A stretch of 50,801 nt of DNA from Bacilli bacterium (GTDB lineage Bacteria; Bacillota_I; Bacilli_A; RF39; UBA660). The notes below the pieces were generated by a model that saw only the letters and a program-made list of their open reading frames with translations, had not been told where the DNA came from and searched no databases. The DNA lies in assembly GCA_051872535.1 (NCBI GenBank), contig JBJEDY010000036.1, positions 1-50,801 of the forward strand. The letters are read 5' to 3'. Position 1 is the first letter of the stretch. The number at the start of each line of letters is the position of its first letter. The position numbers and the translations under genes were made by a program. Of this stretch, positions 7 to 43,257 are shown one piece after another.

Positions 7-1587
7 TTAATTATTCAACATACTAAATTTATAGATAATTTCTATATTTCTATCTTTATCTATAATAATTTTATCAATTAAGGCTTGAATTAACTCTCTT
101 GATGGATTATCAATATCAATTAATTCTCTTATCTTATCTTCGTAATTTTTTAATTCTGACTTATTAACCTTCTTATCATTTTTTATATCTTGTAGGCTTT
201 GTATTTTTTCTCTTGTTCTAACTAAAGAATTTTCTGTTTCTCTAGAAATTCTTAAATACATTTCTTCAGATACTATTCCATTAAATTTATCTTGATATAG
301 CATATCTAACTTACTAATAAAGTCTTTTTCTTGCTTTCTTAAATCATTTATTTGATTATTAACATCACTATTATCTTTTTTGTTAATATTTTTAGATATT
401 TCAGATATATCTAATTTTTTCAAATACTTTTTACAAGTATTTTTAATAACTTCAAGTAATGCTTCTTCTAATTTATCATACGGGCTGAAATGAGGCTCAC
501 ACATTCTTCTTTTAGGATCTCTTGAATATCTATTACAATTAACAGTCCAATAGTCATGATTTTTTCTATAAGATACTGTTAAAGTATTACCACATTCCTT
601 ACAATATAATAAATTTTCAAATAATCTTTTATCTCTTTTAACAATATTAGATTTATTAGTCCTTTTAATATTATTTTGAACACTTTCAAATATAAATCTA
701 TCTACTAGTGCTTCATGAGTATTTTTAACTATATCCCAATTACTTTTAGGTAATGATTTTTTCTTTTTAGATTTATATGATACTTTAGTCTGTACACTTT
801 GTACCATATCACCTACATACATCTGATTTTTTAATATCTTTTTAACAGAAGAAATAGTCCACATAGGATTATATTTAGCTTTTGAATTAGGATTTTTTCT
901 TTTTAAACTACTTGGTGTTTTTATATTATTATCATTCAAATAAGTAGTTATTTCAGAAAGTCCTACTCCATTGTAAGCCATTTCAAATATCTTTTTTACT
1001 ACCCACGCATACTCCGGATCTGGTATTAAGTGTCCTTTATCATCTGGATCTCTTAGATATCCATAACTTGGAGCACTTCCAATAAATTTTCCATTTCTTC
1101 TTTTATCATTTAAAACATTACGTATTTTAACTGAGTTTTGTTTGCTATAAAAATCGTTACAAGCAAAGATAAATGTTGATGAATCATTGCTTGCTTGATT
1201 AACCGCATTATCATACCCTTCTAGCATAGAAATAAATCTTATTCCATTTTCCGGGAAGAAAGTTTCAACATAATAACCTGTTAAAATATGATCTCTACCT
1301 AATCTTGATAAATCTTTTACTATTACAAGATTAATTCTTCTGGCTTTAATATCTTCAATAAGTCTTTGGAATCCTGGTCTATCAAAAGTAGTACCTGAGT
1401 AACCATCATCTACATATTCATCTACGAAAATAAATCCTTTTTCTTTAATAAAATTCATTAGTATATTTCTTTGGTTAAGGACACTCTCACTTTCAGATTC
1501 GTAAGATTTGCCTTCATCAGCTTCTGATAATCTTATATAAATTCCTGCTTTATAGTATTCTGGCATCTCTTTTAAAGTGTTATACAA
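7..1587 (-). CDS. Large serine recombinase (TnpX/TndX/phage serine-integrase class)
   Basis: The N-terminus has the resolvase catalytic motif GIYIRLSEAD, followed by VKDLSRLGRD. A recombinase domain follows, then a Cys-rich zinc-ribbon (CKECGN...NCNRY...C) and a C-terminal coiled-coil. AAGGAGAG lies 5 nt before a TTG at 1587. The track ORF extends to 1626. Confidence 0.9.
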   Translation of the reverse strand: MYNTLKEMPEYYKAGIYIRLSEADEGKSYESESESVLNQRNILMNFIKEKGFIFVDEYVDDGYSGTTFDRPGFQRLIEDIKARRINLVIVKDLSRLGRDHILTGYYVETFFPENGIRFISMLEGYDNAVNQASNDSSTFIFACNDFYSKQNSVKIRNVLNDKRRNGKFIGSAPSYGYLRDPDDKGHLIPDPEYAWVVKKIFEMAYNGVGLSEITTYLNDNNIKTPSSLKRKNPNSKAKYNPMWTISSVKKILKNQMYVGDMVQSVQTKVSYKSKKKKSLPKSNWDIVKNTHEALVDRFIFESVQNNIKRTNKSNIVKRDKRLFENLLYCKECGNTLTVSYRKNHDYWTVNCNRYSRDPKRRMCEPHFSPYDKLEEALLEVIKNTCKKYLKKLDISEISKNINKKDNSDVNNQINDLRKQEKDFISKLDMLYQDKFNGIVSEEMYLRISRETENSLVRTREKIQSLQDIKNDKKVNKSELKNYEDKIRELIDIDNPSRELIQALIDKIIIDKDRNIEIIYKFSMLNN

Positions 1588-1790
1588 GTTTACTCTCCTT
1601 TCTGATTGTATAACAACTAAAGCCAATTAAATTATAACACATAAATTTAATTAAGAGCATGCTGTCAGTCACTATTTATCACGCTGTTTATAAATTTAGT
1701 TACCAAATCTGTAAAATTAGGAGAATCATCTTTGAAAGTTTCTGTTATATTAAACATAAGCCACCTCATTTAATTTTATGAGTGGACTAT

Positions 1791-2321
1791 TCATAATATA
1801 TCTTCCTCCTTTTCTATAAAATCTTTCAATAAATTCTCCATTTCTTCTTGTTCTTCTATAGTTGCAACACTAGATTTAATAGGAATACCATGCCAATACT
1901 CTATACCATTTTCATCAACATAATAAATTTTATCTAATATATCTTTTTTATTTTTATTATATTTATTATCATGGTTAAAATTATTTTGAATACTAGCATT
2001 AATATTTCCTTGAATACTTGTTATTCTTTTCTTTAATGCTTCAGATAATCTGATTATTCTTTTTGAATTATTTGTTTCACTATTATTTATTTCTATATCA
2101 ATATATCCAAATTTTGATAAACTACTTATACTCTTTGAAACTGTTGGTTTTGTGCAGTTAAATTTATTCATAAAATATCTATTAGTAGGCCAACAATAGC
2201 CATTTTTCTTACATAGTGACACTAGTTCAATTAACAATAACCTTTCAAAGTAAGTAAGACGATTATCTCCTAATACTGATTCTGGTAATACTAAACTAAT
2301 AAATGGTTCTTTTTCCATCAT
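1791..2321 (-). CDS. Winged-helix/HTH DNA-binding protein of the island (HTH_36-like or replication-organiser-like N-terminus)
   Basis: The segment LTYFERLLLIELVSLCKKNGYCWPTNRYFMNKFNCTKPTVSKSISSLSKFGYID matches the HTH pattern common in Firmicute mobile-element Rep/DnaD-like proteins. The C-terminus is acidic. Confidence 0.5.
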   Translation of the reverse strand: MMEKEPFISLVLPESVLGDNRLTYFERLLLIELVSLCKKNGYCWPTNRYFMNKFNCTKPTVSKSISSLSKFGYIDIEINNSETNNSKRIIRLSEALKKRITSIQGNINASIQNNFNHDNKYNKNKKDILDKIYYVDENGIEYWHGIPIKSSVATIEEQEEMENLLKDFIEKEEDIL

Positions 2322-2692
2322 ATCTCCAATATAAGATTATCAAGTTTAGTAGTTCCATGTTATCCTCCTTTCTTTACCAGCCTTTTTAGGAACACGTAAA
2401 AAGAACTGAACACATTAGTCCATAACAAAAACAAGGGGATTTTTTCCAATCTTGTTTGTTGGATTAATATGTACTCAGTTCTTCACTGATTAATTATTTA
2501 TACATTACTCTTAATGCATAATATAACTTTTTTTAATTTCATTTTCTTCATTAATAGCTATTATTTTTTCTTATTTTATATTTATATATATTTAAATGTA
2601 CTAGCCACATTCCCGTATGGCTAATATAATTATAACACCAATTACTTTTATTTCAATAAGTAATCGTTCGACAATATTCGACAAATAATTCA

Positions 2693-3592
2693 CTATTTTT
2701 CATGTTTATTCATTAATATATCAATTTTATCAAACCAATCACTTGTATGATTAACTTTATCTATAACGTCCGGCGTTGATAATACTTCTTGTTTGGATAA
2801 TTGAGATAGCTCTTTCCATTTATCCTTTGGAACAACATAAGTTGCATTTCCATAGTAACCATTTTCCAAAAAACAAGTATTTTTGAAAACAAATGCATAG
2901 TAACCAGTAAAGCCACCAGAGCCAACAAATATCTCAGATGGGTTATAAGAATTTAAAGTATCTAATCTTAATTGATTATAATCAGGTCTTTTTTTCTTTT
3001 TACTCTCCTTTTCTCTATTAATACTTGTTAATGCTATAACTCTAACACCAGGTGGTAATAATTCCCAATTACATCTTTTTATTTTATTATGTACATCAAT
3101 TAAATCTAAATCTTCATTAAATATTTCACAAAAGCCAAATATTTCCAAAAACATATTAATAGTCTGCTTTATTATTTCTTTATCTGTTTTTAAATCTATA
3201 TTTGCTAATATAAAAGATTCTCCAGAATTATTTTTGGCTAATAAAAATTCTATATTACTAGCAGGAATTTCAACTCTAGGATATACTTTTCTCGATATAT
3301 CAAAGTAATTTCCATGCTCGTTGCCACCCCAATCTTGCCAAGTCCAATAAATAGTATTTATTACCCTATCTTCCTTAGGTTTTGTTTTATCTGGAAACGA
3401 ATAACCATTTGAATTTCTGTTACAATTTATGCCAAATTCAGGGGATGGTTGTATAGCAGTTCCTTCTACAAATTCTTTTATACCTAATTTTTCATATTCA
3501 TTATTTGTAACATGAATACCTATTTTTATATTATCATCCTTATACTTATCTAAAAAGTCTAATGATATTATTCTTTTTTTACTTATAATCAT
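2693..3592 (-). CDS. Hypothetical protein of 299 aa with no family or catalytic motif recognised
   Basis: The ORF is long and uninterrupted. GGAGGAATAAAT precedes the ATG at 3592 (MIISKKRI...), so the first 12 codons of the track ORF are probably not translated. Notable segments are WTWQDWGGNEHG and FVGSGGFTGYYAFVFKNTCFLENGYYGNATYVV. Confidence 0.6.
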   Translation of the reverse strand: MIISKKRIISLDFLDKYKDDNIKIGIHVTNNEYEKLGIKEFVEGTAIQPSPEFGINCNRNSNGYSFPDKTKPKEDRVINTIYWTWQDWGGNEHGNYFDISRKVYPRVEIPASNIEFLLAKNNSGESFILANIDLKTDKEIIKQTINMFLEIFGFCEIFNEDLDLIDVHNKIKRCNWELLPPGVRVIALTSINREKESKKKKRPDYNQLRLDTLNSYNPSEIFVGSGGFTGYYAFVFKNTCFLENGYYGNATYVVPKDKWKELSQLSKQEVLSTPDVIDKVNHTSDWFDKIDILMNKHEK

Positions 3593-3648
3593 ATTTATTC
3601 CTCCATTAATTATTTTTGGAGCAACCACATACTTAGATTAATTAATTT

Positions 3649-3726
3649 CTACTTTTTATGTGTACCAGGTCTACATCTATTATGAGCCTTAACATGAACT
3701 GACTTATTGCATTTTTTCTTTGCCAT
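3649..3726 (-). CDS. Small basic Cys/His peptide of 25 aa (MAKKKCNKSVHVKAHNRCRPGTHKK)
   Basis: AAAGGAGGT lies 8 nt upstream of the ATG at 3726. This is far better than any start further up the 95-aa track ORF. The peptide lies 56 nt upstream of the 299-aa gene. The spacing C-x4-H-x3-H-x2-C could bind zinc. Confidence 0.45.
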   Translation of the reverse strand: MAKKKCNKSVHVKAHNRCRPGTHKK

Positions 3727-3940
3727 ATATTTTACCTCCTTTTCATTTAAACTCGAACAATAGAATTTTTTTATGATCAATGACTTGATTTTGTCTTTTT
3801 TTTCTGTTATGCTAATAATAGCAGGAATGACAAAAGTCATGAATATAGTCAAATTCATATTCTCCTGTAATTTTTCATTTTCTAACATTTTGTTTGTTAG
3901 TCTTTGATTTTCGTTTAGTATGGTGGCTGCAACCACTTAT

Positions 3941-3985
3941 ACAAAAGTAAAAGCATTTGTTTATCTCGAAACAAATGCTTTTTTA
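3941..3985 (-). terminator. Rho-independent terminator after the RM operon (bidirectional hairpin)
   Basis: A 14-bp stem AAAAGCATTTGTTT / AAACAAATGCTTTT with a 6-nt loop is flanked by T-runs on both strands. It separates the RM S gene from the small-peptide cassette. Confidence 0.7.
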
Positions 3986-4118
3986 TATTACATCATTAAC
4001 AAGATAAACTCAGGTACTATTACTTCCGTATAATTGCATATTATCATAAAAATAGAATTAATGCAATAGCACTCTGTACTTTATATTGCTAAATTATAAG
4101 GTTATACTTTATTAATTT

Positions 4119-5102
4119 TCATAGCAAATTAGAATATGGTAATTTTTTTATAAATAATTCCATTGAATTCCAATCAATTTCGTTATTTTTATCAACTGGC
4201 AAATATAATTTTTCTTTTTTTATTCTATTTTGTGCCCTTTTGCGTGAGTATTCATATTTATCTAAATAATAATTCAATATAGTTTGTAAATAAACAGCAG
4301 TATAAATATTTAGTTTATTTTTATATTTATCTCTTATTTCTAATATTTCAACATGATCAGATCCAATGAATTTTTCCTGTTGATAAAAAGATTTCCCATC
4401 AGTTGCGCTATCAACAGTAAAAACGTTCCCATTTTCCGAATACTCATTGTGAAATCCACTAAATCCAAAATTTTTATTAGAAGTTGTTATATAATAATAA
4501 TCACCTGAAATTAATAGTTTTGAACTTATCCTTTTATTTATACTCCTAACATTAAAAACTTGTGTTATAGGTATCTCTACACAATTATTTGGCAAAGAAA
4601 TATCCATATTTCTTTTTTGTAATTTTCTGTCATCCCATTTAGCATTAGGAATTATTTTATCCATAAAATTTTCAATATAATTCCAATTAACTTTACCTTC
4701 ATTATCAATAGGCAATTTTATATAATCTTTTGATATTCTCTTATCAGACATTTCCCTATTAAAAAAATAATTATCGCCCAATTTTTCTAATAAAGTTATT
4801 AAATACATAGCTATTTTTTTTGTTAAAGTTCTATCCTTTAACCACATAACTGTCACATGATCACTAGCAACAAATTCATAATCATGATAAAAGGTTGCAC
4901 CTACGCTGCCACTATTTGCAATAGTAATACAATTTTTATATATTTTCATATATTTAGGTGGATTTATATAATTATCTATTCCATTATTGAACTTTGTTGA
5001 GGATACATATGCAATATCACCATCAACCTGATTTAATCTGATTAATCTTTTACCTCTAGAATGATAAAAAATATCATCTATTAAAAAATATTTATACTTC
5101 AT
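4119..5102 (-). CDS. RM specificity subunit (HsdS/BcgIB-like, two target-recognition domains)
   Basis: The two halves resemble each other (NSGSVGATFYHDYEFVASDHV and DSATDGKSFYQQEKFIGSDHV), and each is followed by a conserved helical spacer. GGAGGA lies 8 nt before the ATG at 5102. The gene overlaps the stop of the upstream methyltransferase gene. Confidence 0.85.
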   Translation of the reverse strand: MKYKYFLIDDIFYHSRGKRLIRLNQVDGDIAYVSSTKFNNGIDNYINPPKYMKIYKNCITIANSGSVGATFYHDYEFVASDHVTVMWLKDRTLTKKIAMYLITLLEKLGDNYFFNREMSDKRISKDYIKLPIDNEGKVNWNYIENFMDKIIPNAKWDDRKLQKRNMDISLPNNCVEIPITQVFNVRSINKRISSKLLISGDYYYITTSNKNFGFSGFHNEYSENGNVFTVDSATDGKSFYQQEKFIGSDHVEILEIRDKYKNKLNIYTAVYLQTILNYYLDKYEYSRKRAQNRIKKEKLYLPVDKNNEIDWNSMELFIKKLPYSNLL

Positions 5103-7119
5103 TATGTTCATCCTCCATCAAGTCATTTGCTGAGGCATTATTTTCTTGAAGTATTTCAAGCAAATCTATTTCATTTAAATCTTTATCTAATAAATTCAAA
5201 TCTTTTTTTGTGTTAAATATAACAAATTCTTTCACAGTTTTTTCAAAATCGCTTATTGATAATTTATCAAACTCAACTTTTGAAAAGGCTTGTATCAGCC
5301 ATTCATCGTTTTCTTGTATTTTAACAAAAACATTCTTTATTTCATCAATGTTTTTAGGATTCCTATAATAAGGCGCATCAATATCTTTTAATAATTTATT
5401 TTTAATATCATTCCATTTATTATAGACATCTCTACGACCTTTTTTCTTTGCTAACTCAAATCCATCATCTTTTAAATTATAAAATACTACTGGATTGTTA
5501 TAATCATGTGCTTTATTGGTTTCTATTACTATAATGGAACTACCAGTTGAAGCATTAGGTTGGAACAAATCTTTTGGCATATTTATAACCGCCTTAAGGG
5601 TATTATTTTTAAGAAGATTATTTCTAATTTCATTTTCTCCCATAAATGTTTGCGGTGGGGCTATCATAACAACATATCTGCTACATAATCTGCACATTTT
5701 TTCAAGAAAACTTATTTCTTTCATCCATGGTTTTTTATTTTTGGTTTTAGAATTCTTATCACCTTTAAATTTTTGTAATTCATTATAATCTGTAAATGAA
5801 CCAGAATAAGGTGGATTTATAAAACCAATTGTTGGTTTACTACCTATTTCTTTACATTTCTTTTCAAAATTGATATCAAATTCTTCTGAGAAAAAATCAT
5901 AATTTAAAATGTTTGATTTTCCATCTCCTCTAAATAACATATTTGATATAGCTAAAATATACATATGAGGTTTAAGTTCATTTCCTAACAATTGATATTT
6001 TCTAACATGCTCTATGCCTTTAGAGTCAGTTTGTAAGTCAAACAATTTGTTCATTCCAGCAATTAAGAATGATCCAGTGCCACAGCAAGAATCAAAAATA
6101 ACATCATTCTTTTTTAAATCTATTAAATTTGTAAATAAATCTGTAACATGTTCAGGCGTTAATACTATTCCTGATTGTACATCTACTATACCGGCATACC
6201 TTAAAAATTCCTGATAAAATTTTCCTATAATATCATAATTGTGACGTGTTTCAAATAAAGGAATTACATCATCACGTAATATCGTTAAAATAGTTTTTAT
6301 AGTATCACTTTCTAATAATACTTTTTCACTAGATAACGCTCCGAATTTTGACATTATCATATCAATTTTTTCTTTTGGTAAATTTTCTCCATCTTCACCT
6401 AAAATATCTGGAACAACTATACCTATTTGCTTCATTAATTGCTTTGGACTGTATTCTTCAAATTGTTCTCTAAATGTATTCCTATATTTGGAATTTTTAG
6501 ATTCAAACAATGCTATGAGCAAAATACTTAATAACGTTGGTCTCTCATCTTCTTTAACATCATATAAAAGATTATTAATAGTACTTGAAGCCTGAGAAAT
6601 ACGAGAAGATATTTCTTCTAAATTTAAATTATCAAACAATGCTAAATAATCTTTTTCATTATGAATTTCATTAATATTCATATCAATAATTTTATCTATT
6701 TGTATATAAAAAGTATCTATCCTATAACCATATTCAATATCCATATCACCTGATATTGCAAGTCCTAAAATATTCCACGAACGTAAATTAATAAGTGCTT
6801 TATTTATTTCAGGAGAAATAGCGCCATAGCTTTCTAACGTTCCTGGTATAAAACAATTCAAATAATGTTTTATTTGTGGAATTGCTTCTTTTTCGTGTTG
6901 TGCAATAGTAGATTTCAACTCTACTAAAATTAATAATTTTTTCTTTTCATTAACGTATATAAAATCAGGCAAGCCAATATGTCCGCTCTTATTTTTTGAA
7001 GAATGATCTAATATAGTATTAATATCCTTATTTTCACATAATTCCTTCCATTGATTTTCAAAATCCAAAGTCAATAAATGCTTATATAAATCTAAAAATG
7101 TTTTATCATTTCTTGCCAT
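5092..7119 (-). CDS. Fused PD-(D/E)XK endonuclease and gamma-class N6-adenine DNA methyltransferase (BcgIA-like Type IIB/IIG RM subunit)
   Basis: The N-terminus carries GLPDFIYV...LLILVELK, a PD...ExK nuclease motif. The methyltransferase part has motif I (VIFDSCCGTGSFL) and motif IV (GFINPPYSG), plus GIVLTPEHV. The gene is translationally coupled to the S gene. Confidence 0.8.
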   Translation of the reverse strand: MARNDKTFLDLYKHLLTLDFENQWKELCENKDINTILDHSSKNKSGHIGLPDFIYVNEKKKLLILVELKSTIAQHEKEAIPQIKHYLNCFIPGTLESYGAISPEINKALINLRSWNILGLAISGDMDIEYGYRIDTFYIQIDKIIDMNINEIHNEKDYLALFDNLNLEEISSRISQASSTINNLLYDVKEDERPTLLSILLIALFESKNSKYRNTFREQFEEYSPKQLMKQIGIVVPDILGEDGENLPKEKIDMIMSKFGALSSEKVLLESDTIKTILTILRDDVIPLFETRHNYDIIGKFYQEFLRYAGIVDVQSGIVLTPEHVTDLFTNLIDLKKNDVIFDSCCGTGSFLIAGMNKLFDLQTDSKGIEHVRKYQLLGNELKPHMYILAISNMLFRGDGKSNILNYDFFSEEFDINFEKKCKEIGSKPTIGFINPPYSGSFTDYNELQKFKGDKNSKTKNKKPWMKEISFLEKMCRLCSRYVVMIAPPQTFMGENEIRNNLLKNNTLKAVINMPKDLFQPNASTGSSIIVIETNKAHDYNNPVVFYNLKDDGFELAKKKGRRDVYNKWNDIKNKLLKDIDAPYYRNPKNIDEIKNVFVKIQENDEWLIQAFSKVEFDKLSISDFEKTVKEFVIFNTKKDLNLLDKDLNEIDLLEILQENNASANDLMEDEHNEV

Positions 7120-7370: not shown

Positions 7371-7668
7371 AAAAAAATTTCTTTAGTATCATTGGATTAT
7401 CTTTTTCTATTTTTAAATTATATTTTATTCTTAATATCTTCTTTATAGATGGTATAAGTTTATTTATATCACATCTTACATTAAATACATCTATTGCAGA
7501 GTTAATATGATTATAAAGTGGTGCTTTAGATAATGCTTTCTTGTAAAAACTATCTGCTATATAGAAGGCTACTACATCTGGTATTATAAATTCTTTTAGA
7601 AAGTTATCATAATTAATGCATACAGGTAAATATATTCTTTCAAATTCTTCATCAGTTATATCACACAT
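7369..7668 (-). CDS. Hypothetical protein of 99 aa, coupled to the tnpV-like gene
   Basis: The ORF overlaps the tnpV-like stop by 8 nt. No motif was recognised. Confidence 0.45.
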   Translation of the reverse strand: MCDITDEEFERIYLPVCINYDNFLKEFIIPDVVAFYIADSFYKKALSKAPLYNHINSAIDVFNVRCDINKLIPSIKKILRIKYNLKIEKDNPMILKKFF

Positions 7669-8011
7669 AGATATACTCCTTTAGAATTATTTCTTCTGCA
7701 ATATTTTTAATATTATTCATTTTACTTACCCATAGTATTTGATTATTTTCTTTTAACTGTTCATTAATATTTTCTTTTTCAGCCAGTTCTGTAATTAATT
7801 TCTGCACCTTCTCCATAACAGTAGTATCTATATTATGAAGATATTCATTTAAAGTATCATTAACAAGTAAATCAAAATATAATCCAAGTTTGTATTTCTT
7901 AATATATTCTAGTCTTAATAATCCATATTTTCCTATATTAAATTGTTCTTTATCTTTTAATATTAAATTAGGTAATAAATAATCACCTTTTCTAGTGTAA
8001 CTAATATTCAT
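7661..8011 (-). CDS. tnpV: TnpV-like transposon protein
   Basis: YTRKGDYLLPNLIL...IGKYG...LNEYL..ID......LI.ELAEKE.I.EQLK..NQ.LWV.KMNNI.N.AEEI matches my recollection of the TnpV family of Tn4451/Tn4453-type elements. An ATGGAGAAATGTT RBS precedes the ATG. Confidence 0.65.
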   Translation of the reverse strand: MNISYTRKGDYLLPNLILKDKEQFNIGKYGLLRLEYIKKYKLGLYFDLLVNDTLNEYLHNIDTTVMEKVQKLITELAEKENINEQLKENNQILWVSKMNNIKNIAEEIILKEYIYV

Positions 8012-8053: not shown

Positions 8054-8341
8054 TTATACATTTGTTACACAATGACCATCGCCACCTCCCGCATTAATAT
8101 GATTACTAACAACTATTACATCGTTACCATTTCCATAAAAATCTAATGCTTTTTCTACTCTTTCATTAGGATCGAGAGTTATATCAGTAGACCTTGTTAT
8201 AGATACTGGTACTCCAAGTTCTTTCAATCTATCATACATATAATTAGAAATTTTTAATGTATAATCCTTTTCTACAATTCCATTAGCAGTTGCTCCACCA
8301 TCACTTCCACCATGACCTGCATCAATTACAATCTTTTTCAT
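8054..8341 (-). pseudogene. 5' fragment of an N-acetylmuramoyl-L-alanine amidase (Amidase_3) gene, truncated at the island junction
   Basis: MKKIVIDAGHGGSDGGA...VVSNHINAGGGDG is followed by six unrelated codons and a stop. About 95 aa remain, whereas intact family members are about 180-230 aa. A GAGGTGA RBS precedes the ATG at 8341. Confidence 0.7.
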
Positions 8342-8416
8342 AAGTTTCACCTCTATGATAAGATATGAAAAAGTCATTTTTAGTTTACTATCATTTGAAG
8401 GCATAAAAAAAACCAA

Positions 8417-9541
8417 CTATTGTTTTTGTGAGTTGGCTTCTAATTTAATCTTAACTTCTTTTTCTTTTCCATCACGGATAAGTTTAATCTTAACAGTATC
8501 TCCTACTTGATGTGAATAAATTTCATATCTAAAATCTGCAGTAGAAGAAATCTTTTCATCATCTACGTAAGTAATAATATCTCCTTTTTTTATACCAGCT
8601 TTATCAGCAGATAACCCATCTGATACTTCATTAACATAAATTCCATTTTTAGTTTCTGAATCAGTATATCCATAATATACAGCATAAGATAATTCCATAG
8701 TACTAATTCCTAGATATGGTCTTTGAATCTCCTTACCTTCTTCTAATATCTTAGCAGTATTTAATGCATCCTCTATAGGAATAGCAAACCCTATACCTTC
8801 AATACCAGTTGATGATACTTTAGATGAAGTAATACCAATAACTTCTCCATTACTATTACATAAAGGTCCACCACTATTACCACTATTTATTGCTACATCT
8901 GTTTGTAATAAACTCATTACAACATTATTAGTACTAAATTGATTATCAGCCATATTTAATGTAACTAAACGATCTTTTCCAGATAAAATACCTCTTGTAA
9001 CTGTCCATCCATATGCACTACTTACAGGACTTCCTACTGCAAATGCAGTATCACCCAACCTAGCATCTTCGCTACTTCCTAATTCAGCTACAGAAATAAC
9101 TTTATCAGAAGATATTTTTAAAACTGCAATATCTGAATACATATCACTACCTACAACTTTAGCATCAACAATATCTCCACTAGTAAATGTAACACTTACT
9201 ACTGATGCACCTTTTACTACATGATAATTAGTTAAAATATAAGCATCATCATCATTAATCTTATAGACAAATCCTGTCCCAGAAGCATATGGTTGTAAAT
9301 CTCCATTAGATTTCTTGAATGTATTAACTGTTACAACTGCATCATACACTTTTTCAACAGAATCAGCTATACCTTCCTCATTTACTGTAACTTCTTTTTC
9401 AGTCTTTGTAATATTAGTAACTGTATCTCCTGGATGTTTCTTAAAATAATAAGTTGTACAACCTATTCCAACAGCTAACATTAAAACTGATACTATTAAA
9501 ATAATTATTACTTCTTTTATAAAATTTTTTCTAGTTTCCAT
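8417..9541 (-). CDS. htrA: HtrA/DegP-family serine protease (S1C) with a PDZ domain
   Basis: There is an N-terminal TM segment. The catalytic motifs TNYHVV (His), DIAVLK (Asp) and GNSGGPL (Ser) are present. The C-terminus is PDZ-like (GLSADKAGIKKGDII). Confidence 0.9.
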   Translation of the reverse strand: METRKNFIKEVIIILIVSVLMLAVGIGCTTYYFKKHPGDTVTNITKTEKEVTVNEEGIADSVEKVYDAVVTVNTFKKSNGDLQPYASGTGFVYKINDDDAYILTNYHVVKGASVVSVTFTSGDIVDAKVVGSDMYSDIAVLKISSDKVISVAELGSSEDARLGDTAFAVGSPVSSAYGWTVTRGILSGKDRLVTLNMADNQFSTNNVVMSLLQTDVAINSGNSGGPLCNSNGEVIGITSSKVSSTGIEGIGFAIPIEDALNTAKILEEGKEIQRPYLGISTMELSYAVYYGYTDSETKNGIYVNEVSDGLSADKAGIKKGDIITYVDDEKISSTADFRYEIYSHQVGDTVKIKLIRDGKEKEVKIKLEANSQKQ

Positions 9542-10472
9542 AACTATCCATCCTTGCTATATCTTTATAATTTTGAGGAAAACCAATAGCATCTAATACT
9601 TTTTTAATACTAATAGTTTTTAGTTTCCCTTCTAATATATCTACTTCATATCCTATTTCGTTCATCATTAAAATAAAATCATCATTACGTAACATATATT
9701 TTAATATAATAATTAATGCAAATAAATCATCTTTACCATAGATATATTCATTATCCTGTTTCGGAATATTTAATGCTTTATGATAATAAGTATCTTCAAT
9801 TACTTTATGAGTTTTATGATTATATAAAATATCTTCATGAGCACATAGATTTCTAAAATTTGCTAAAATAGGAAAATAAATCAATAAATCATTAACAGAT
9901 ACTCCATAAATACATGCTATATCTTTCTGATCTTCTGGTTTCAAAATCGTAAATAATTCACTAACTACACCAAAAGACAATACTTTAACCAAAATCCATA
10001 ACGGTACATATCCATAATTATTAATATAGTGCATTGTAGCTGAGTGTTGAACACCATTAACTCTAATTTGTCTTTTCATTTTCTTAATTAAGTCATTTAC
10101 TTGTTTGGCTTTTTCATTACTTCTATTAAAGTTAGCTGGATTCAAATAATTCTTTTCTTTAATTCCATACTTTTTTGATAATTGATAAGATAAAATGCTT
10201 TTAGCGTTATTTTCAACAATAAGCAAATTTTTAAATACTATATTTCTTATCTGACGGTCAAAATTGAACATCGCATATAACTCATTAAAATTAGTTCCTG
10301 TTATAAACATACGATCTTTTTGAGATTTTAAAAAAAGATGTCTATAACCATTTATAAAGAAATAATTTTCATGAAGTAATATTTCTTTAGTATAATCAAT
10401 GTCATCAATTTCTAAGCCTTTACTTTTAAGAATGTCGATTTGTTCATCTAAAGTCTTAAATGTCTTTATCAT
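9531..10472 (-). CDS. Abi_2 (AbiD/AbiF-like) abortive-infection family protein
   Basis: The protein has YFFINGYRHLF, an FRNLCAHEDILYN motif (R-N-x-x-A-H) and a length of about 310 aa. Its stop overlaps the htrA start by 11 nt. Confidence 0.7.
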   Translation of the reverse strand: MIKTFKTLDEQIDILKSKGLEIDDIDYTKEILLHENYFFINGYRHLFLKSQKDRMFITGTNFNELYAMFNFDRQIRNIVFKNLLIVENNAKSILSYQLSKKYGIKEKNYLNPANFNRSNEKAKQVNDLIKKMKRQIRVNGVQHSATMHYINNYGYVPLWILVKVLSFGVVSELFTILKPEDQKDIACIYGVSVNDLLIYFPILANFRNLCAHEDILYNHKTHKVIEDTYYHKALNIPKQDNEYIYGKDDLFALIIILKYMLRNDDFILMMNEIGYEVDILEGKLKTISIKKVLDAIGFPQNYKDIARMDSYGN

Positions 10473-34089: not shown

Positions 34090-36561
34090 TTATTCACCAG
34101 TTTTGTTTATGTCTGATAATATACTATTATTTTCTTCTATCTCATTATCATCTTTTTTATCTACCAAACTAATTGTAGAAACTTTTTGTCCTTCACGCAA
34201 ATTAATTAATCTAACACCTTGTGTAACACGTCCAAGAGTTGATATTTGATCAAGTGGCATTCTTATTACCATACCAGAATCAGTAATAATTATTACATCC
34301 TGATTTTCTGAAGTTACTTCAAAATCTGCAATTGGACCATTTTTTTCAGTAATACTTAATGCTTTAACACCTTTACTACCACGCTTAGTTTCTCTAAATT
34401 CACGAACGTTTGTTTTCTTTCCGTAACCTTTTTCAGTAACAATTAAAATAGAATCTTCATCTGTAGCAATTTCTGCTCCAATACAAGTACTGTCATCTAA
34501 ATCAATTCCTTTAACACCTGAAGCTGTTCTACCCATAACACGAACATTGTTTTCGTCAAATTTAACCATACGACCAGCAGATGATCCTAAAAGAACTGAA
34601 TTATTTCCATTAGTCTTTAATACTTGAATCAATTCATCATTTTCTCTAAGTGTGATGGCAATCTTACCATTAGTACGAATATTATCAAACTCAGATAATA
34701 TAGTTCTCTTAACAATACCATCTTTCGTAACAAATAATAAATACTTAGACTCATCTTCCTTAGAAACTTTAACAACTGACTTAATCATTTCATCCTTTTC
34801 GATTTGAAGTAAATTTACAATTGGAATACCTTTAGAAGTACGTCCAAATTCTGGAATCTCATAACCTTTAATACGATATACTTTACCTTTATTTGTAAAG
34901 AATAATACAAAATCATGTGTGGATAAATTAATCATATGTTTAACATAATCTTCCTCATTTGTGGACATTCCTTTAACTCCAACTCCACCACGATTTTGAG
35001 ATTTTACTGCATCAGATACAAATCTCTTAATATATCCATTATTTGTTAAAGAAATCATAATATTTTCTTCTGGAATTAATGATTCATCTTCAATAAATTC
35101 GATTGCTGTCATGTCAATCTTTGTTCTTCTTTCATCACCGAACTTATTCTTTATTTCTGTCATTTCTTCTTTGATTATATTATATACTTTTTCATCACTA
35201 GCTAAAATTGAGCGTAATTCAGCAATTTCTTTCATCAATTCAGCAAGTTCAGATTCAATTTTATCTCTTTCTAATCCAGTTAATCTACGTAATCTCATAT
35301 CTAGAATAGCTTGAGCTTGAATATCATCTAAACCAAATCTTTCAATTAATCCAGATTTCGCTTCTTGATCACTTTTAGAAGCTCTAATTAATTTAACAAC
35401 TTCATCAATATTATCTAAAGCAATCTTTAATCCTTCTAAAATATGTGCTCTTTCTTCTGCTTTCTTTAAATTATATTTAGTTCTACGTATAATAATTTCT
35501 TTCTGATATTCAACGTACTTAGAAATAATATCTTTAAGGCCTAAAGTTTTCGGAACACCTTGATCTAACATCAAAAAGATAATACCAAATGTTGTTTGAA
35601 AATCTGTATGTTTAAATAATTGATTTAAAACAACTTGAGGATTTGCATCTTTTTTTAAAGTAATAGTAATTTTTATACCATTTTTTAAATCTGAATGATA
35701 ATCTGAAATACCTTCAATAACTTTGTTATGCACTAATTCTGCAACCTTGTTCTTAAGATCTAAAGTATTAACACCATAAGGAACTTCATCAACTACAATA
35801 TAATGTCTTCCATTTTTTTCTTCAATAGTAGCTTTACTACGTATAGTAATTGATCCTCTTCCAGTTTCATAAGCTTTCTTTATTCCTGAGTTTCCAAGAA
35901 TAATTCCACCTGTAGGAAAATCTGGACCTTTAATAATTTGCATTAATTCTTCTAAAGTAATGTCTTTATTATCAATATATGCAATACAACCATCAATAAC
36001 TTCACATAAATTATGTGGTGGAATATTTGTTGCCATACCAACAGCAATACCCATTGTACCATTCACTAAAATATTAGGAAATCTTGATGGTAATATAGCT
36101 GGTTCTTTTTCACTATCATCAAAATTTGGAATCATATCAACAGTTTCTTTATTAATATCTCTTAATAATTCTAAAGACATCTTTGACAATCTTGATTCAG
36201 TATAACGCATCGCTGCAGCACCATAACCTTCTATATTACCAAAGTTACCATGCCCATCAACTAACATATAACGATAACTAAAATCTTGAGCCATTCTTAC
36301 CATAGCTTCATAAATACTTGAATCTCCATGAGGATGATATTTTCCCATTACATCCCCGACAATTCTTGCACTTTTTTTATGAGGTTTATCAGGAGTATAT
36401 CCAGATTCATACATTGAATACATTATTCTTCTATGAACTGGCTTTAAACCATCTCTTAAATCTGGTAAAGCTCTTGCTACAATGACACTCATTGAGTAAT
36501 CTAAAAATGAATCTCTAACTTCTTTTTCAATATTATTATTTTCTAATCTATCCATATCCAA
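34090..36561 (-). CDS. gyrA: DNA gyrase subunit A
   Basis: [14 protein letters not shown] and AAMRYTE (the active-site Tyr region) are present, with C-terminal beta-pinwheel repeats. Confidence 0.97.
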
Positions 36562-36569
36562 ATACCTCC

Positions 36570-38483
36570 CTAAGCATCCAAATTCTGTACATATACAGCA
36601 TTTTCTTCAATAAATTGTCTTCTAGGTTCAACTTCATCACCCATTAATTTAGAGAATACTTCATCTGCAGTTCTTGTATCTTCAACTGTAATTCTTCTAA
36701 GAATACGTTTTTCAATATCCATTGTTGTTTCATTTAATTCTTCAGCATCCATTTCTCCTAAACCTTTCATACGCAGAATATCTCTCTTAGTTTCAGGTTT
36801 AAGAGTTGCTAAATATTCATCTCTTTCTTTTTCATCAAGAACATATTTAATAGTTTGTCCATGTTTTATACAATATAAAGGCGGTTGTGCAGCATAAACA
36901 TGACCTGCCTCCACAATTGGTCTAAAAAATCTATAAAACAACGTAAGTAATAAAACACGAATATGAGCACCATCAACATCAGCATCTGTCATAATAATTA
37001 TTTTATTATATCTTAATTTTGATAAATCAAATTCATCACCAATTCCTGTACCAAATGCAGTAATTATAGATCTAATCTCTTCATTATTTAATGCTCTATC
37101 TAATCTTGCTTTTTCAACATTCAAAATTTTACCTCTTAATGGAAGAATTGCTTGTGTCATACTATTACGTCCTTTAATAGCTGAACCACCAGCAGAATCT
37201 CCTTCGACAAGAAATATTTCACATTCAGAAGGATCTTTGCTCTTACAATCTGATAACTTACCATAGAAATTAGTTACATCTAAATCTCCTTTACGACGTG
37301 TAAGTTCTCTTGCTTTCTTTGCAGCAAGTCTTGCACGTGATGCAGTCATTGATTTTTCTAAAATAGTTCTTGCAATTTCAGGATTTTCTAATAAAAATCT
37401 TTCAAGACCATTACTAAAAACATCATCTGCTATTTTTCTAACTTCTGCATTACCTAATTTTGTTTTAGTTTGACCTTCAAATTGTGGATCTGGATGTTTA
37501 CAAGAAATAATCATTGTTAAACCTTCACGAACATCTTCTCCGGTAAGTGGATCATCATTTTCTTTTAAGATTTTATTATTTTTAGCATAAGCATTAATAA
37601 TTCTCGTTAAAGATCTCTTAACACCATCTTCGTGAGTTCCACCTTCATAAGTACTAATATTATTAGTAAAAGAATAAATACTTGAGTTATAGTCTTCATT
37701 ATATTGAAAAGCTACTTCTATAGATATATTATTTTCATTTCCTTCAACATAAACAACATTATCATGAAGAACTTTTTTGTTTTTATTTAATTTATTAACA
37801 AATTCAATAATTCCACCATTATAGATATATTCATTTCTTTTTTCATCTTCTCTTAAATCTTTTAAAATAATACGTAATCCTTTATTTAAAAATGCTAATT
37901 CTTCTAATCTTGTAGCTAAAGTATCATAATTATATATAGTTGTTTCTTTAAATATTTCTGGATCTGGTTTAAATGTTACAGTAGTTCCAGTACGATCTTT
38001 AGAACACTCATCGATTACTTTAAGTGGCTCAACTGAATGACCACCATTTTCAAATCTTTGATAATATACTTTACCATCTTTATAGATTCTTACTTCTAAC
38101 CAAGAAGATAAAGCATTAACTACAGATGCTCCAACACCATGTAACCCTCCTGAAACTTTATATCCACTACCACCAAATTTACCACCAGCATGTAATACTG
38201 TAAAAATAGTCTCGACAGTACTTAAACCTGTCTTAGTATTAATTCCAGTTGGAATACCACGACCATCATCTTTAACTGTAATAACATTGTTTTTTTCAAT
38301 AATAACTTCAATATCATCACAGTATCCAGCTAATGCCTCATCTACAGCATTATCAACAATTTCCCATACTAAATGATGTAATCCCCTTTCACTAGTAGTA
38401 CCGATATACATACCTGGTCTTTTTCTTACTGCTTCTAATCCTTCTAATACTTGAATATCACTATCATTATACTCATGTTGCAT
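36570..38483 (-). CDS. gyrB: DNA gyrase subunit B
   Basis: [40 protein letters not shown] and [12 protein letters not shown] are present. Confidence 0.97.
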
Positions 38484-38484
38484 T

Positions 38485-39576: not shown

Positions 39577-39687
39577 TTTTGCCCTCTCTTAAGTCCATAT
39601 AGTAAAATTATGGGTATATGAATACTCCTATACCTAAGTATAATTATATCACAAAATAACCAGTTATTCACAATTTTTTTACATTAT

Positions 39688-39723
39688 TTTATAAAAAATC
39701 ATCAATTTATTTTTTTGATGATT
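39688..39723 (-). terminator. comK terminator
   Basis: The stem AATCATCAA / TTGATGATT is followed on the minus strand by TTTTTATAAA. Confidence 0.6.
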
Positions 39724-39737
39724 CTTTTCTTTTATAT

Positions 39738-43240: not shown

Positions 43241-43257
43241 ATGCGGAGGTGTAATAT

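What the first reader, a model, noticed from the sequence alone, without database searches (positions are those of the whole stretch)
2693..3936. Uncharacterised two-gene cassette (25-aa basic Cys/His peptide plus 299-aa orphan protein) next to an RM system on a mobile island
A strong terminator (3941..3985) closes the BcgI-like RM operon. Directly after it comes a separate unit. A tiny ORF with a near-ideal Shine-Dalgarno (AAAGGAGGT, 8 nt, ATG) is followed 56 nt later by a 299-aa ORF with its own GGAGG RBS, and the unit ends at a weak hairpin (TAGCCA...TGGCTA, 2603..2624). I recognise no family, nucleotide-binding loop or nuclease motif in the large protein, whose distinctive segments are WTWQDWGGNEHG and FVGSGGFTGYYAFVFKNTCFLENGYYGNATYVV. 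Its position inside a recombinase-bounded island and next to RM is typical of defence or counter-defence cargo. That makes it the best candidate in this window for an undescribed system. Any function is inference only.
Basis: partly seen in the sequence, partly recalled or inferred. Interest (0 to 1): 0.75.

Follow-up and report, generated by a model that had tools for sequence, protein, structure and literature searches.

The report
Modular small-peptide/effector defence-island cassette
Next to a restriction system on a mobile element sits a real two-gene unit: a conserved 25-residue basic peptide plus a 299-residue protein from a very large, unnamed, structurally unrecognisable family. The unit has the genomic signature of a stress-controlled anti-phage or toxin-like module, but nobody has tested it.

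Summary
Three points need correcting.

1. The 299-aa protein is not an orphan. It belongs to a family of at least 2,507 clusters (50% identity) found in Bacillota, Patescibacteria, Proteobacteria, Bacteroidota, Actinobacteria and Archaea. The family has no Pfam, NCBIfam, PADLOC, PDB or Foldseek match.
2. The peptide is a real gene (5 synonymous, 0 non-synonymous variants), but the pairing is modular. Relatives of the protein carry at least 8 unrelated small partners (DUF2188, DUF3892, YjzC-like, PADLOC PDC-S38 and others). The same leader and peptide also precede a ThsB-TIR pair and a pPIWI-type nuclease.
3. The "RM terminator" belongs to a conserved ~340-nt leader of the cassette. This leader holds a promoter with palindromes, a terminator, and a covarying long-range helix next to the sequestered RBS of the large gene.

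Family genes often lie beside LexA or HTH+ImmA regulators, AbiL-like ATPases and RM systems, and are rare in phages. The best reading is a stress-gated defence or toxin-like effector with a swappable small nucleic-acid-binding partner. The biochemistry is unknown, and every functional statement is inference.

The parts
4067..4091 (-). Inverted repeat TAGCA-N15-TGCTA immediately upstream of the leader promoter (candidate operator)
   Evidence: This is the only match in the window. Both half-sites are invariant in 6 diverged leaders (A4).
4034..4066 (-). Leader promoter: -35 TTGCAT (4066..4061), 17-nt spacer, extended -10 TGaTAATAT (4046..4038). It is enclosed by the inverted repeat TTGCA-N23-TGCAA.
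   Evidence: Read. The hexamers, the TG and the spacing are conserved in WIN, L012, L014, L007, L016 and L094. The inverted repeat is unique in the window. The -35 has only 3 of 6 consensus matches, so the simple scan did not list the site.
3949..3982 (-). Intrinsic-terminator-like hairpin (14 bp) plus U-tract 3948..3939, about 50 nt downstream of the leader promoter. It is either an attenuator or the end of a short leader RNA. It may also stop read-through from the RM operon.
   Evidence: Found. It is conserved in all leader-bearing loci, including those without an upstream RM. The alifold stem of 13 pairs is kept in 5-6 of 6 sequences.
3918..3942 (-). Leader hairpin 2. The 5' half is A (GTATAAGTGGTTGC) and the 3' half is B (GCAGCCACCATAC, 3930..3918).
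   Evidence: Predicted. L094 shows a GTGG/CCAC to GTAG/CTAC compensatory change.
3882..3900 (-). Leader hairpin 3, CTAAC-N9-GTTAG
   Evidence: Conserved in all 6 aligned leaders.
3810..3833 (-). Conserved block TTGTCATTCCTGCTATTATTAGCA, containing the palindrome TGCTA-N4-TAGCA. It is not a conserved ORF; the reading frame differs in L016, L094 and L013.
   Evidence: The frame check used the alignments.
3649..3726 (-). Small-protein slot: the 25-aa Lys/Arg-rich peptide MAKKKCNKSVHVKAHNRCRPGTHKK. Cys6, His15, Cys18 and His23 are invariant in all variants seen. A zinc knuckle is inferred.
   Evidence: Translation. Purifying selection. Variants in L007, L099, L103, L107, L109 and L111. No Pfam match.
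3618..3632 (-). Segment A' (GTATGTGGTTGC, 3632..3621), complementary to leader segment B, running into the anti-SD GCTCC (3622..3618).
   Evidence: The long-range complementarity is present in all 9 leader loci. It shows 93% pairing, 5 of 13 pairs with double changes, and 0 of 500 shuffles as good. An SD-sequestering hairpin is predicted in 7 of 8 loci.
2693..3592 (-). Effector slot: the 299-aa protein (SD GGAGG 3604..3600). It has two domains (about 1-165 and 203-299) joined by a disordered basic linker (186-201). Family-invariant residues are N60, N146, W176, L179, P180, G224, Y231, A250, Y252, K267, H282 and W286.
   Evidence: pLDDT 89, pTM 0.73. Family size.

Best explanation
The unit at 4091..2693 (minus strand) is a portable three-part cassette carried on a serine-recombinase element.

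**Part 1: the leader (~340 nt).** It holds an extended -10 promoter flanked by two palindromes, an intrinsic-terminator hairpin and further hairpins.

**Part 2: a small-protein slot.** Here it holds a 25-aa basic peptide that probably binds zinc.

**Part 3: an effector slot.** Here it holds a 299-aa member of a huge unnamed family.

**Most likely function (inferred).** This is a stress-gated defence or toxin-like (abortive-infection type) module.
- The 299-aa protein is the effector.
- The small basic protein is a nucleic-acid- or ribosome-binding partner that senses or tunes the effector.
- Effector output is held down by the leader terminator and by a hairpin that occludes its Shine-Dalgarno sequence.
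- Output is released when leader segment B pairs with segment A' just downstream of the small ORF, which ties effector translation to expression of the small ORF.
- In other lineages the same effector family is placed under LexA or HTH+ImmA/IrrE (CapH/CapP- or RmrA-like) proteolytic switches. This suggests induction by DNA damage or infection stress.

**Shown:** gene reality, family size, partner and effector swapping, neighbour statistics, and conservation and covariation of the leader.

**Inferred:** the defence role, the effector and sensor assignment, and the direction of the RNA switch.

**Unknown:** the biochemical activity.
For: **Cassette and peptide are real.**

**The family is large and unannotated.** There are 2,507 clusters, 528 of them at E<=1e-30. 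None of 61 diverse members hits Pfam or NCBIfam. All source names are 'hypothetical'.

**The small partner is swapped.**
- 38 of 68 non-redundant loci have an adjacent same-strand small gene.
- These genes fall into at least 8 unrelated types: DUF2188 (1.8e-24; PADLOC PDC-S16 at 1e-19), a 57-aa type (PDC-S38 at 1.8e-30), an Ala/Ser/Lys-rich type, a YjzC-like type, DUF3892, GIY-YIG-like, a Myb-like type, and this peptide.
- They often overlap the core gene or lie within 4-18 nt of it.

**Swapping occurs inside one conserved frame.** The same leader and core carry the 25-aa peptide (WIN, L007), a YjzC-like protein (L016) or a 41-aa protein (L094).

**The effector slot is swapped too.** The leader and peptide precede a TM protein plus a ThsB-TIR protein (L107; Pfam 9.6e-8, PADLOC 6e-10). 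In L103 they precede a pP_pnuc_1 nuclease (1.8e-30).

**Neighbour census.** Among the 150 nearest genes of 64 loci:

| Neighbour family | Hits |
|---|---|
| Peptidase_S24 | 10 |
| LexA_DNA_bind | 7 |
| Peptidase_M78 | 8 |
| PADLOC RmrA | 11 |
| capP | 8 |
| capH | 6 |
| AbiLi | 5 |
| AriA | 5 |

**Direct adjacency to known defence genes.** The core gene lies next to type I HsdR, a Schlafen-type helicase and a RES toxin. It also lies next to an AbiE pair (AbiEi/AbiEii) and RM systems of types III, IIG and ISP-like.

**Rare in viruses.** It occurs in 1 of 50,697 phage records and in 9 loci among 2.9 million IMG/VR contigs.

**Leader structure.** The fold has z = -5.1. The helix covaries. The SD is occluded in 7 of 8 loci.

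**Literature.**
- CapH/CapP regulators sit divergently upstream of putative defence operons, including a 'DUF2188 + hypothetical protein' operon (bioRxiv 10.1101/2022.04.27.489752).
- DUF3892 is predicted to sense RNA or ribosomes (10.1101/2025.01.14.632903).
- PDC families are genes embedded in RM, BREX or DISARM systems (10.1101/2024.01.29.577857).
Against: - No experiment exists for any member.
- No catalytic motif or fold could be assigned, so 'effector' is positional inference only.
- About 44% of non-redundant loci have no recognisable small partner. One example is L092, where the core sits behind a consensus promoter. The partner is therefore not obligatory, and the core alone is probably not constitutively toxic.
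- The window copy has no adjacent LexA, ImmA or HTH regulator and no Cheo-type LexA box.
- Adjacency to LexA in Patescibacteria could reflect an SOS repair or cell-cycle role rather than defence.
- Guilt by association with RM and mobile elements also fits addiction modules.
- Segment A' was located by searching for complementarity. The A/B/A' repeats could instead be three DNA operator copies rather than RNA partners.
- The leader is known only from a narrow gut-Bacilli lineage, so few independent sequences support the covariation.
Confidence: 0.45

Rival explanations
1. It is a toxin-antitoxin-type addiction module that stabilises the mobile element or plasmid. One of the two products is toxic and the other neutralises it, without a primary role in phage defence.
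For: - The genes form tight two-gene operons with overlapping or 4-18-nt junctions.
- Partners are swapped combinatorially on both sides, as in hyperpromiscuous TA networks (PMC10440598).
- DUF2188 has been compared with HicB antitoxins (PMC13621843).
- Neighbouring HTH+M78 proteins hit Rosmer antitoxin (RmrA) models.
- The family is present on 16 plasmids and next to recombinases.
Against: - About 44% of loci lack any small partner.
- The same 25-aa peptide precedes three unrelated effectors. A specific protein-protein antidote is hard to reconcile with this.
- The core does not match any PADLOC toxin model.
- TA function and abortive-infection defence are not mutually exclusive.
Confidence: 0.2
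2. The 25-aa ORF acts only in cis, as a leader peptide or uORF. Its translation remodels the mRNA and controls the downstream gene, and the peptide itself has no function in trans.
For: - The ORF lies between leader segment B and its complement A'. The downstream SD is predicted to be sequestered.
- The leader and peptide are re-used upstream of unrelated effectors.
- The slot tolerates unrelated ORFs with the same leader.
Against: - The amino-acid sequence is under purifying selection, with an invariant Cys/His pattern.
- In other loci the same slot holds folded domain families (DUF2188, DUF3892, YjzC-like). These also occur downstream of the core and in lineages that lack this leader.
- Stalling leader peptides are also sequence-constrained, so selection alone does not exclude this reading.
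Confidence: 0.2
3. The family has a cellular DNA-damage (SOS) function, such as repair, replication restart or cell-cycle arrest. It is only incidentally carried on mobile elements.
For: - Canonical LexA (LexA_DNA_bind + S24) lies directly adjacent in 10 non-redundant loci. It is either divergent at 60-150 nt or in an operon 4-8 nt upstream.
- Palindromic LexA-box-like sites occur in those intergenic regions.
- HTH+M78 pairs of the IrrE/DdrO type occur in 11 loci.
Against: - Cores at least 80% identical occur in three different Patescibacteria classes, which implies horizontal transfer.
- Several 'LexA' loci also carry recombinases or two LexA paralogues.
- The distribution is patchy.
- Most other contexts are RM, Abi or helicase defence genes.
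- The window copy has no LexA box.
Confidence: 0.1
4. It is counter-defence or establishment cargo. The cassette protects the incoming mobile element from host restriction or controls the neighbouring RM system.
For: - It lies immediately downstream of RM genes in the window and in several relatives.
- The small partners PDC-S16 and PDC-S38 were defined as genes embedded in RM, BREX or DISARM systems.
Against: - The family is nearly absent from phages.
- It is also found beside non-RM systems and beside LexA alone.
- The same leader and peptide drive TIR and nuclease effectors, which are defence-type rather than anti-defence-type.
Confidence: 0.05

Closest known systems
CapH/CapP-type (HTH + M78 metallopeptidase) and LexA-controlled defence operons, including the 'DUF2188 + hypothetical protein' operon of Lau et al. 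2022 (bioRxiv 10.1101/2022.04.27.489752)
   Same: In 21 of 68 non-redundant loci the family gene sits next to such a regulator, usually divergently. It often has DUF2188 overlapping its 3' end. An example is L067: M78, a 128-aa HTH protein, a 197-aa protein, the core, then DUF2188. This gene order matches the one described for Extensimonas.
   Different: The window copy has neither regulator nor DUF2188. Instead it uses a structured leader with palindromes. I could not verify that the hypothetical protein of Lau et al. (WP_144728457/WP_144728459) is a member of this family. DNA-damage induction is untested.
RosmerTA (RmrT toxin + RmrA HTH/M78 antitoxin)
   Same: HTH/M78 neighbours of the family score up to 1e-107 against PADLOC RmrA models. 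Rosmer toxins are diverse, unrelated and of unknown fold (PMC10440598).
   Different: The core matches no PADLOC model, including RmrT. Most M78 neighbours are divergent split CapH/CapP-like pairs rather than co-directional fusions. There is none in the window, and no toxicity data exist.
PADLOC phage-defence candidates PDC-S16 (DUF2188-like) and PDC-S38 (57-aa protein), Payne et al. 2024 preprint
   Same: These untested 'single-gene' candidates are two of the recurrent small partners of the family. They were found embedded in RM, BREX or DISARM systems, and the window cassette abuts an RM system.
   Different: They were defined without the 300-aa gene. The window's 25-aa peptide is a different sequence type; it has no Pfam match and was not tested against PADLOC.
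Hyperpromiscuous type II toxin-antitoxin networks (Panacea/NetFlax)
   Same: Partners are swapped combinatorially on both sides of a tight two-gene unit. SocA/Panacea-domain HTH proteins occur near some members.
   Different: There is no evidence of toxicity or neutralisation, and many loci lack a partner. The shared element in this lineage is an RNA leader plus a 25-aa peptide, not a protein antitoxin domain.
Leader-peptide or uORF translational attenuation (erm/cat type) and transcription attenuators
   Same: A short ORF lies upstream of a gene whose SD is in a hairpin. Alternative pairings (A:B versus B:A') are possible, and a terminator sits in the leader.
   Different: The sequences are unrelated and there is no Rfam family. 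The slot can hold 41-58-aa folded proteins. The inducing signal is unknown.

Membership tests
RosmerTA | Adjacent RmrA antitoxin (HTH + M78/ImmA peptidase) | tested here: not met
   No M78 or HTH_3 gene lies in the window island. The feature is met only in some distant relatives.
RosmerTA | Large protein matches a known RmrT toxin model | tested here: not met
   The 299-aa protein has 0 PADLOC hits at E<=0.01.
RosmerTA | Toxicity neutralised by the partner; phage protection | not testable with these tools
   Needs expression and plaque assays.
CapH/CapP- or LexA-controlled defence operon | Divergent HTH + M78 pair, or a LexA gene or LexA box, upstream of the operon | tested here: not met
   In the window there is no such gene and no CGAAC-N4-GTTCG within 2 mismatches in 2600..4120. 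The feature is met in 21 of 68 relatives.
CapH/CapP- or LexA-controlled defence operon | Induction by DNA damage through repressor cleavage | not testable with these tools
   Needs transcript or reporter measurements.
DUF2188 / DUF3892 / YjzC small-protein families | The small partner matches the family HMM above its cut-off | tested here: not met
   The window peptide has 0 Pfam families at E<=0.1. Partners in other loci do match: DUF2188 at 86 bits and DUF3892 at 24 bits. The YjzC match is only 14 bits, below the 25-bit cut-off.
PADLOC PDC-S16 / PDC-S38 | The small partner matches the PDC HMM | not tested
Partners of relatives match.
Known nuclease or toxin folds (PD-(D/E)xK, GIY-YIG, HEPN, HNH, TIR, RelE-like) | Profile or structural similarity to a solved or curated member | tested here: not met
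   Pfam, NCBIfam, PHROGs and PADLOC gave nothing. PDB profile searches with the whole protein and with the C-domain gave 0 hits at E<=10. Foldseek against PDB and BFVD gave a best E of 0.06-0.12 with TM at most 0.16.
Type II toxin-antitoxin module (generic) | Obligate two-gene pairing conserved across homologs | tested here: inconclusive
   38 of 68 loci have an adjacent small gene, and 30 have none that I could recognise. Partner types are unrelated.
Rfam cis-regulatory RNA families | Leader matches a curated covariance model | tested here: not met
   Only sub-threshold terminator-like matches were found in 2300..4300.

The most novel reading that the evidence does not exclude
The 299-aa protein may represent a major, so far unnamed effector family with a new fold. 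It would work with interchangeable small nucleic-acid- or ribosome-binding proteins as a widespread two-component immune or stress module, spanning bacteria and archaea and gated by LexA or ImmA-type switches.

In gut Bacilli, a new structured RNA leader (promoter with operators, terminator, and a long-range helix that brackets a mini-ORF) would serve as a portable expression platform. Mobile elements would plug different defence effectors into it: this family, a ThsB-TIR pair with a TM protein, or a pPIWI-type nuclease.
Probability: 0.3. Interest if true: 0.8.

Novelty: new variant of a known kind. Interest (0 to 1): 0.62.

Why it matters
**A large family would gain a function.** If the reading is right, a family of thousands of 'hypothetical proteins' would be assigned a role. 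The family occurs in Burkholderia, Lactococcus plasmids, Leptospira plasmids, gut Firmicutes, Patescibacteria and archaea.

**It would clarify known candidate genes.** The small proteins DUF2188, DUF3892, PDC-S16 and PDC-S38 keep appearing in defence islands. This reading would present them as partners of a larger effector rather than as single-gene systems.

**It links damage sensing to an untested effector class.** The association with LexA and CapH/CapP-like switches connects DNA-damage sensing to a class of effector that nobody has tested.

**The leader is a directly testable riboregulator.** Its conserved long-range helix and occluded RBS can be probed experimentally. It may be re-usable as a 'defence cargo socket' on serine-recombinase elements.

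Tried and rejected
1. **Family assignment.** I scanned the window protein against Pfam, NCBIfam, PHROGs and PADLOC, and 61 diverse members against Pfam and NCBIfam. I also ran PDB profile searches with the whole protein and with the C-domain. Nothing was found.
2. **Fold assignment.** I built two AF2 models (pLDDT 80, then 89) and searched them with Foldseek against PDB (both models) and BFVD (first model). There was no match better than E = 0.06, and TM-scores were at most 0.16.
3. **Domain fusions.** Longer family members (330-392 aa) have N-terminal extensions that look like mis-called starts, not fused partner domains.
4. **A hydrophobic mini-ORF in the leader (MNLTIFMTFVIPAIISI...).** I considered it as a type I toxin. 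I rejected it because the frame is broken in L016, L094 and L013 while the nucleotides are conserved.
5. **By-eye reading of the C-domain motifs (GFxGY ... LE ... YGNAxY ... K ... RxxH).** I compared them with GIY-YIG, PD-(D/E)xK, HEPN, 2H-phosphoesterase and tyrosine-recombinase patterns. The order and spacing do not fit any of them.
6. **Link to the accessions of Lau et al.** A look-up of ten database clusters returned only 'hypothetical protein' names.
7. **Burroughs & Aravind 2020** could not be read because it is not held.
8. **Widening the leader set.** One metagenome scan and one genome scan returned only the same lineage plus one spurious gyrB hit.
9. **LexA box.** There is no Cheo-type LexA box in the cassette.
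10. **Rfam.** No family matched.
Full report
**1. Observation**

All features are on the minus strand. The sequence contains a 25-codon ORF at 3726..3649 (MAKKKCNKSVHVKAHNRCRPGTHKK), preceded by AAAGGAGGT. A 56-nt spacer follows. A 299-codon ORF then runs 3592..2693, preceded by GGAGG at 3604..3600. A 14-bp hairpin with a U-tract lies at 3982..3949, and a 6-bp TAGCCA/TGGCTA hairpin lies at 2624..2603.

| Coordinates | Gene |
|---|---|
| 5092..7119 and 4119..5111 | BcgI-like type IIG/IIB RM gene plus S subunit |
| 1791..2321 | HTH_36/DnaD-like gene |
| 7..1626 | large serine recombinase |
| 7661..8011 | TnpV |
| 9531..10472 | AbiD |

The window also holds dnaA, dnaN, recF, gyrB and gyrA, and rnpA through mnmG, read from the ORF list. 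The element therefore sits close to the chromosomal origin of a small-genome, uncultured gut Bacilli lineage. The nearest relatives are MAGs labelled 'uncultured Bacilli', one of them a 1.31-Mb circular genome.

**2. The peptide is a real gene**

In six loci whose large protein is 90-97% identical, the peptide sequence is unchanged while the DNA shows five distinct codon variants. All five are synonymous, whereas 19% would be expected by chance.

In L007 the large protein is 59% identical and the peptide is MAKKSCRKTVTVKKHKRCKPGTHK. Compared with the window, 17 of 24 residues are identical, with 14 differences at third positions and 8 at first and second positions.

Cys6, His15, Cys18 and His23 are invariant in every variant seen. 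From this spacing I infer a small zinc knuckle. That is not tested.

**3. The 299-aa protein is not an orphan, but it is unannotated**

- The window protein has no match in Pfam, NCBIfam, PHROGs or PADLOC.
- A word-index search found 54 relatives.
- A profile search of 1.84 billion representatives found 2,507 clusters at E<=1e-3, 1,647 at 1e-10 and 528 at 1e-30. Nearly all are about 300 aa and match end to end.
- Sixty-one diverse members have no shared Pfam or NCBIfam hit.
- Every source name is 'hypothetical' or 'uncharacterized'.
- A scan of one genome per species found members in Bacilli, Clostridia, many Patescibacteria, Burkholderiales, Gammaproteobacteria, Bacteroidota, Actinomycetota, Omnitrophota, and in Bathyarchaeota and Methanobacteriota.

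An AF2 model built from the 61-sequence alignment is confident (pLDDT 89, pTM 0.73). It shows a beta-rich N-domain (about residues 1-165), a disordered Lys-rich linker (186-201), and an alpha/beta C-domain (203-299).

Foldseek found nothing better than E = 0.06 with TM at most 0.16, against the PDB or against BFVD. PDB profile searches with the whole family and with the C-domain returned nothing at E<=10.

Invariant polar residues cluster in the C-domain: Y231, E243, N249, Y252, K267, R279 and H282. Others lie in the N-domain: N60, N146 and E150. I could not fit them to any known catalytic pattern.

**4. Small partners are swapped**

I examined 68 non-redundant loci, defined as core proteins less than 80% identical to each other. 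In 38 of them a small gene on the same strand lies directly before or after the core gene. These small genes fall into at least eight unrelated types:

- DUF2188 (Pfam 1.8e-24; PADLOC PDC-S16 at 1e-19). It overlaps the core stop codon in LexA and ImmA loci, and lies 4 nt upstream of the core in Bacteroidales.
- A 57-aa protein identical in length to PADLOC PDC-S38 (1.8e-30).
- A 41-83-aa Ala/Ser/Lys-rich protein.
- A YjzC-like protein (below the Pfam cut-off).
- DUF3892.
- A GIY-YIG-like protein.
- A Myb/SANT-like 68-aa protein.
- An 88-90-aa protein.
- The 25-aa peptide.

Within the window's own subfamily, the same leader and core carry the 25-aa peptide (WIN, L007), the YjzC-like protein (L016) or a 41-aa basic protein (L094). 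L090 and L091 carry the PDC-S38 type, and L092 carries none.

**5. The effector slot is swapped as well**

A degenerate-DNA scan for the peptide found three loci in which the same leader and peptide are followed by something other than this family:

- In L099 and L107, a 205-aa protein with hydrophobic, membrane-like segments plus a ThsB-type TIR protein (Pfam 9.6e-8, PADLOC 6e-10).
- In L103, a 273-aa protein with the pPIWI-associated nuclease domain (1.8e-30).

Downstream in L107 come the same HTH_36-like gene and serine recombinase as in the window. The 299-aa gene therefore occupies a position that related elements fill with recognised defence-type effectors.

**6. Neighbourhood**

Clustering of flanking ORFs, together with Pfam and PADLOC scans of the 150 nearest genes of 64 loci, showed the following:

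| Family | Hits |
|---|---|
| Peptidase_S24 | 10 |
| LexA_DNA_bind | 7 |
| Peptidase_M78 | 8 |
| HTH_3 | 8 |
| PADLOC RmrA | 11 |
| capP | 8 |
| capH | 6 |
| AbiLi | 5 |
| AriA | 5 |
| RloB | 2 |

The census also listed integrases, resolvases and DNA methylases.

LexA is either divergent at 60-150 nt or sits 4-8 nt upstream in the same operon. LexA-box-like palindromes are visible in several of these intergenic regions.

A four-gene order recurs in Bacilli, Lachnospiraceae and Bacteroidales: AbiL-like ABC ATPase, a small RloB-like/TOPRIM-type gene (Pfam RloB confirmed for two), small partner, core. The three lineages use three different partner types.

Elsewhere the core follows type I HsdR (L025, L035), a Schlafen-type helicase (L028) or a RES toxin (L038). 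In other loci it is followed by an AbiE pair (AbiEi/AbiEii) or a type III RM system, or has an MwoI RM system nearby, and on Lactococcus cremoris SK11 plasmid 5 it follows a 1,560-aa helicase-type enzyme that looks like a type ISP RM enzyme.

The family is rare in viruses. It occurs in 1 of 50,697 phage records and in 9 loci among 2.9 million IMG/VR contigs. It occurs on 16 PLSDB plasmids.

Cores at least 80% identical occur in three different Patescibacteria classes, which indicates horizontal transfer.

**7. The leader**

About 340 nt upstream of the peptide are conserved with the cassette, whatever lies further upstream. The leader contains these elements:

- An extended -10 promoter: TTGCAT at 4066..4061, a 17-nt spacer, and TGaTAATAT at 4046..4038.
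- Two palindromes enclosing the promoter, at 4091..4067 and 4066..4034. Both are unique in the window.
- The terminator hairpin at 3982..3949.
- Hairpin 2 at 3942..3918.
- CTAAC/GTTAG at 3900..3882.
- TGCTA-N4-TAGCA at 3823..3810.

The leader RNA folds much better than shuffled controls (z = -5.1). No Rfam family matches.

The 3' half of hairpin 2 (segment B, 3930..3918) is complementary to a segment A' (3632..3621). A' lies just after the small ORF and 25-45 nt before the effector start. This holds in all nine leader loci, regardless of which small ORF or effector is present.

- 93% of cells pair.
- 5 of 13 pairs show double compensatory changes.
- No shuffle out of 500 reaches this.
- Slid controls pair at 20-64%.

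In 7 of 8 loci, A' runs into a pyrimidine stretch predicted to occlude the effector's SD. I read this as an RNA switch that couples effector translation to expression of the small ORF.

Two caveats apply. A' was found by searching for complementarity, and a DNA-operator explanation (three copies of one motif) is not excluded. Further collection scans found the leader only in this narrow lineage.

**8. Interpretation**

The best-supported reading is a stress-gated defence or toxin-like module. A new effector family works with a swappable small nucleic-acid- or ribosome-binding partner. Expression is set by an RNA leader here, and by LexA or HTH+ImmA proteolytic switches elsewhere.

This fits several published observations:

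- Lau et al. observed that CapH/CapP-like regulators sit divergently upstream of putative defence operons, including a 'DUF2188 + hypothetical protein' operon.
- Aravind's group predicted that DUF3892 senses RNA or ribosomes.
- Mushegian-type analyses compared DUF2188 with HicB.
- RmrA antitoxins pair with diverse toxins.
- PADLOC's PDC families were defined as genes embedded in RM, BREX or DISARM systems.

None of these sources names or tests the 300-aa family.

The rivals are an addiction or TA module, a purely cis-acting leader peptide, a cellular SOS function, and counter-defence. They are weighed in the report sections. The first two overlap with the preferred reading rather than excluding it.

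**9. Verdict**

The finding is real and more interesting than 'orphan next to RM', but in a different way. It is one instance of a very widespread, unnamed, modular system whose components others have flagged piecemeal. It is a new variant of a known kind (regulated two-gene defence or TA-like cassettes), with an uncharacterised effector fold and an undescribed regulatory leader. All functional statements remain inference.

Noticed in passing
window 4091..3600 (minus strand): A conserved ~340-nt structured leader lies upstream of the peptide. It holds an extended -10 promoter between two palindromes, a terminator hairpin, three further hairpins, and a covarying 12-13-bp long-range helix (B at 3930..3918 with A' at 3632..3621). 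The helix brackets the small ORF and abuts an SD-occluding hairpin. No Rfam family matches.
   Followed up: yes
L107 (reverse strand 2295..2912 and 1886..2335); L103:5708-6529: The same leader and 25-aa peptide precede a membrane protein plus a ThsB-TIR protein in L107. In L103 they precede a pP_pnuc_1 (pPIWI-associated) nuclease. In L107 the same HTH_36 gene and serine recombinase as in the window follow. This looks like a 'defence cargo socket' on this element family. One MAG (SRR15604593_bin.36) carries two such cassettes, L016 and L107.
   Followed up: partly
L019, L030, L031, L037, L080, L088 (about 2.5 kb upstream of the family gene): A four-gene order recurs: AbiLi-like ABC ATPase (AAA_15/21), an RloB/DUF4276-like protein, a small partner, then the 300-aa gene. 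It appears in Bacilli, Lachnospiraceae and Bacteroidales with three different small-partner types. This may be a functional link to AbiL/OLD-like systems.
   Followed up: partly
L059:7258-7992, L087:7262-7852 and 6873-7265, L067:7264-7857: In Proteobacteria and Balneolaceae loci, two further unannotated genes (about 196-244 aa and 128-235 aa; the two checked have no Pfam hit, one also no PADLOC hit) sit between the M78 peptidase and the family gene on the opposite strand. They may be extra components or the HTH partner.
   Followed up: no
window 2684..2603 (minus strand): Directly after the stop codon of the 299-aa gene comes a direct repeat TTGTCGAA x2 (2684..2667). It is followed by a near-consensus promoter, TTGAAA-16-TGnTATAAT (2656..2629), and then the TAGCCA/TGGCTA hairpin (2624..2603). 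These are probably the control region of the HTH_36/DnaD-like gene, not a terminator of the cassette.
   Followed up: partly
window 8054..10472: A truncated N-acetylmuramoyl-L-alanine amidase fragment (8054..8416; only profile positions 1-79 of 174) lies next to TnpV. This suggests the right-hand insertion boundary of the element. Beyond it lie an HtrA-like protease and an AbiD gene (PADLOC 2.7e-55), which is a second defence gene outside the element.
   Followed up: no
L047, L050, L054: Family proteins at least 80% identical occur in Magasanikbacteria, Minisyncoccales and Roizmanbacteria MAGs. L047 and L050 have an adjacent LexA-like gene, and in L047 it is unusually long (417 aa); L054 is too short a contig to tell. 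This indicates recent horizontal transfer among Patescibacteria, possibly with the regulator.
   Followed up: no
L095 (Lactococcus cremoris SK11 plasmid 5, NC_008507.1 4299..5210): Family member WP_011669131.1 lies 18 nt downstream of a 1,560-aa 'DEAD/DEAH helicase' that looks like a type ISP restriction-modification enzyme. It sits on a dairy-strain plasmid, which makes it a tractable system for testing phage resistance.
   Followed up: no
L061:8917-9840: In a Paceibacterota locus the operon reads lexA, family gene, then a 307-aa protein with weak SMODS/nucleotidyltransferase similarity (1e-4). This hints at a possible link to nucleotide signalling.
   Followed up: no
window 34090..50691: The window contains the replication-origin gene set: gyrA, gyrB, recF, dnaN and dnaA on the minus strand, and rnpA through mnmG and rsmG on the plus strand. 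I judged this from ORF sizes and order only. The mobile element therefore lies about 30 kb from oriC.
   Followed up: no
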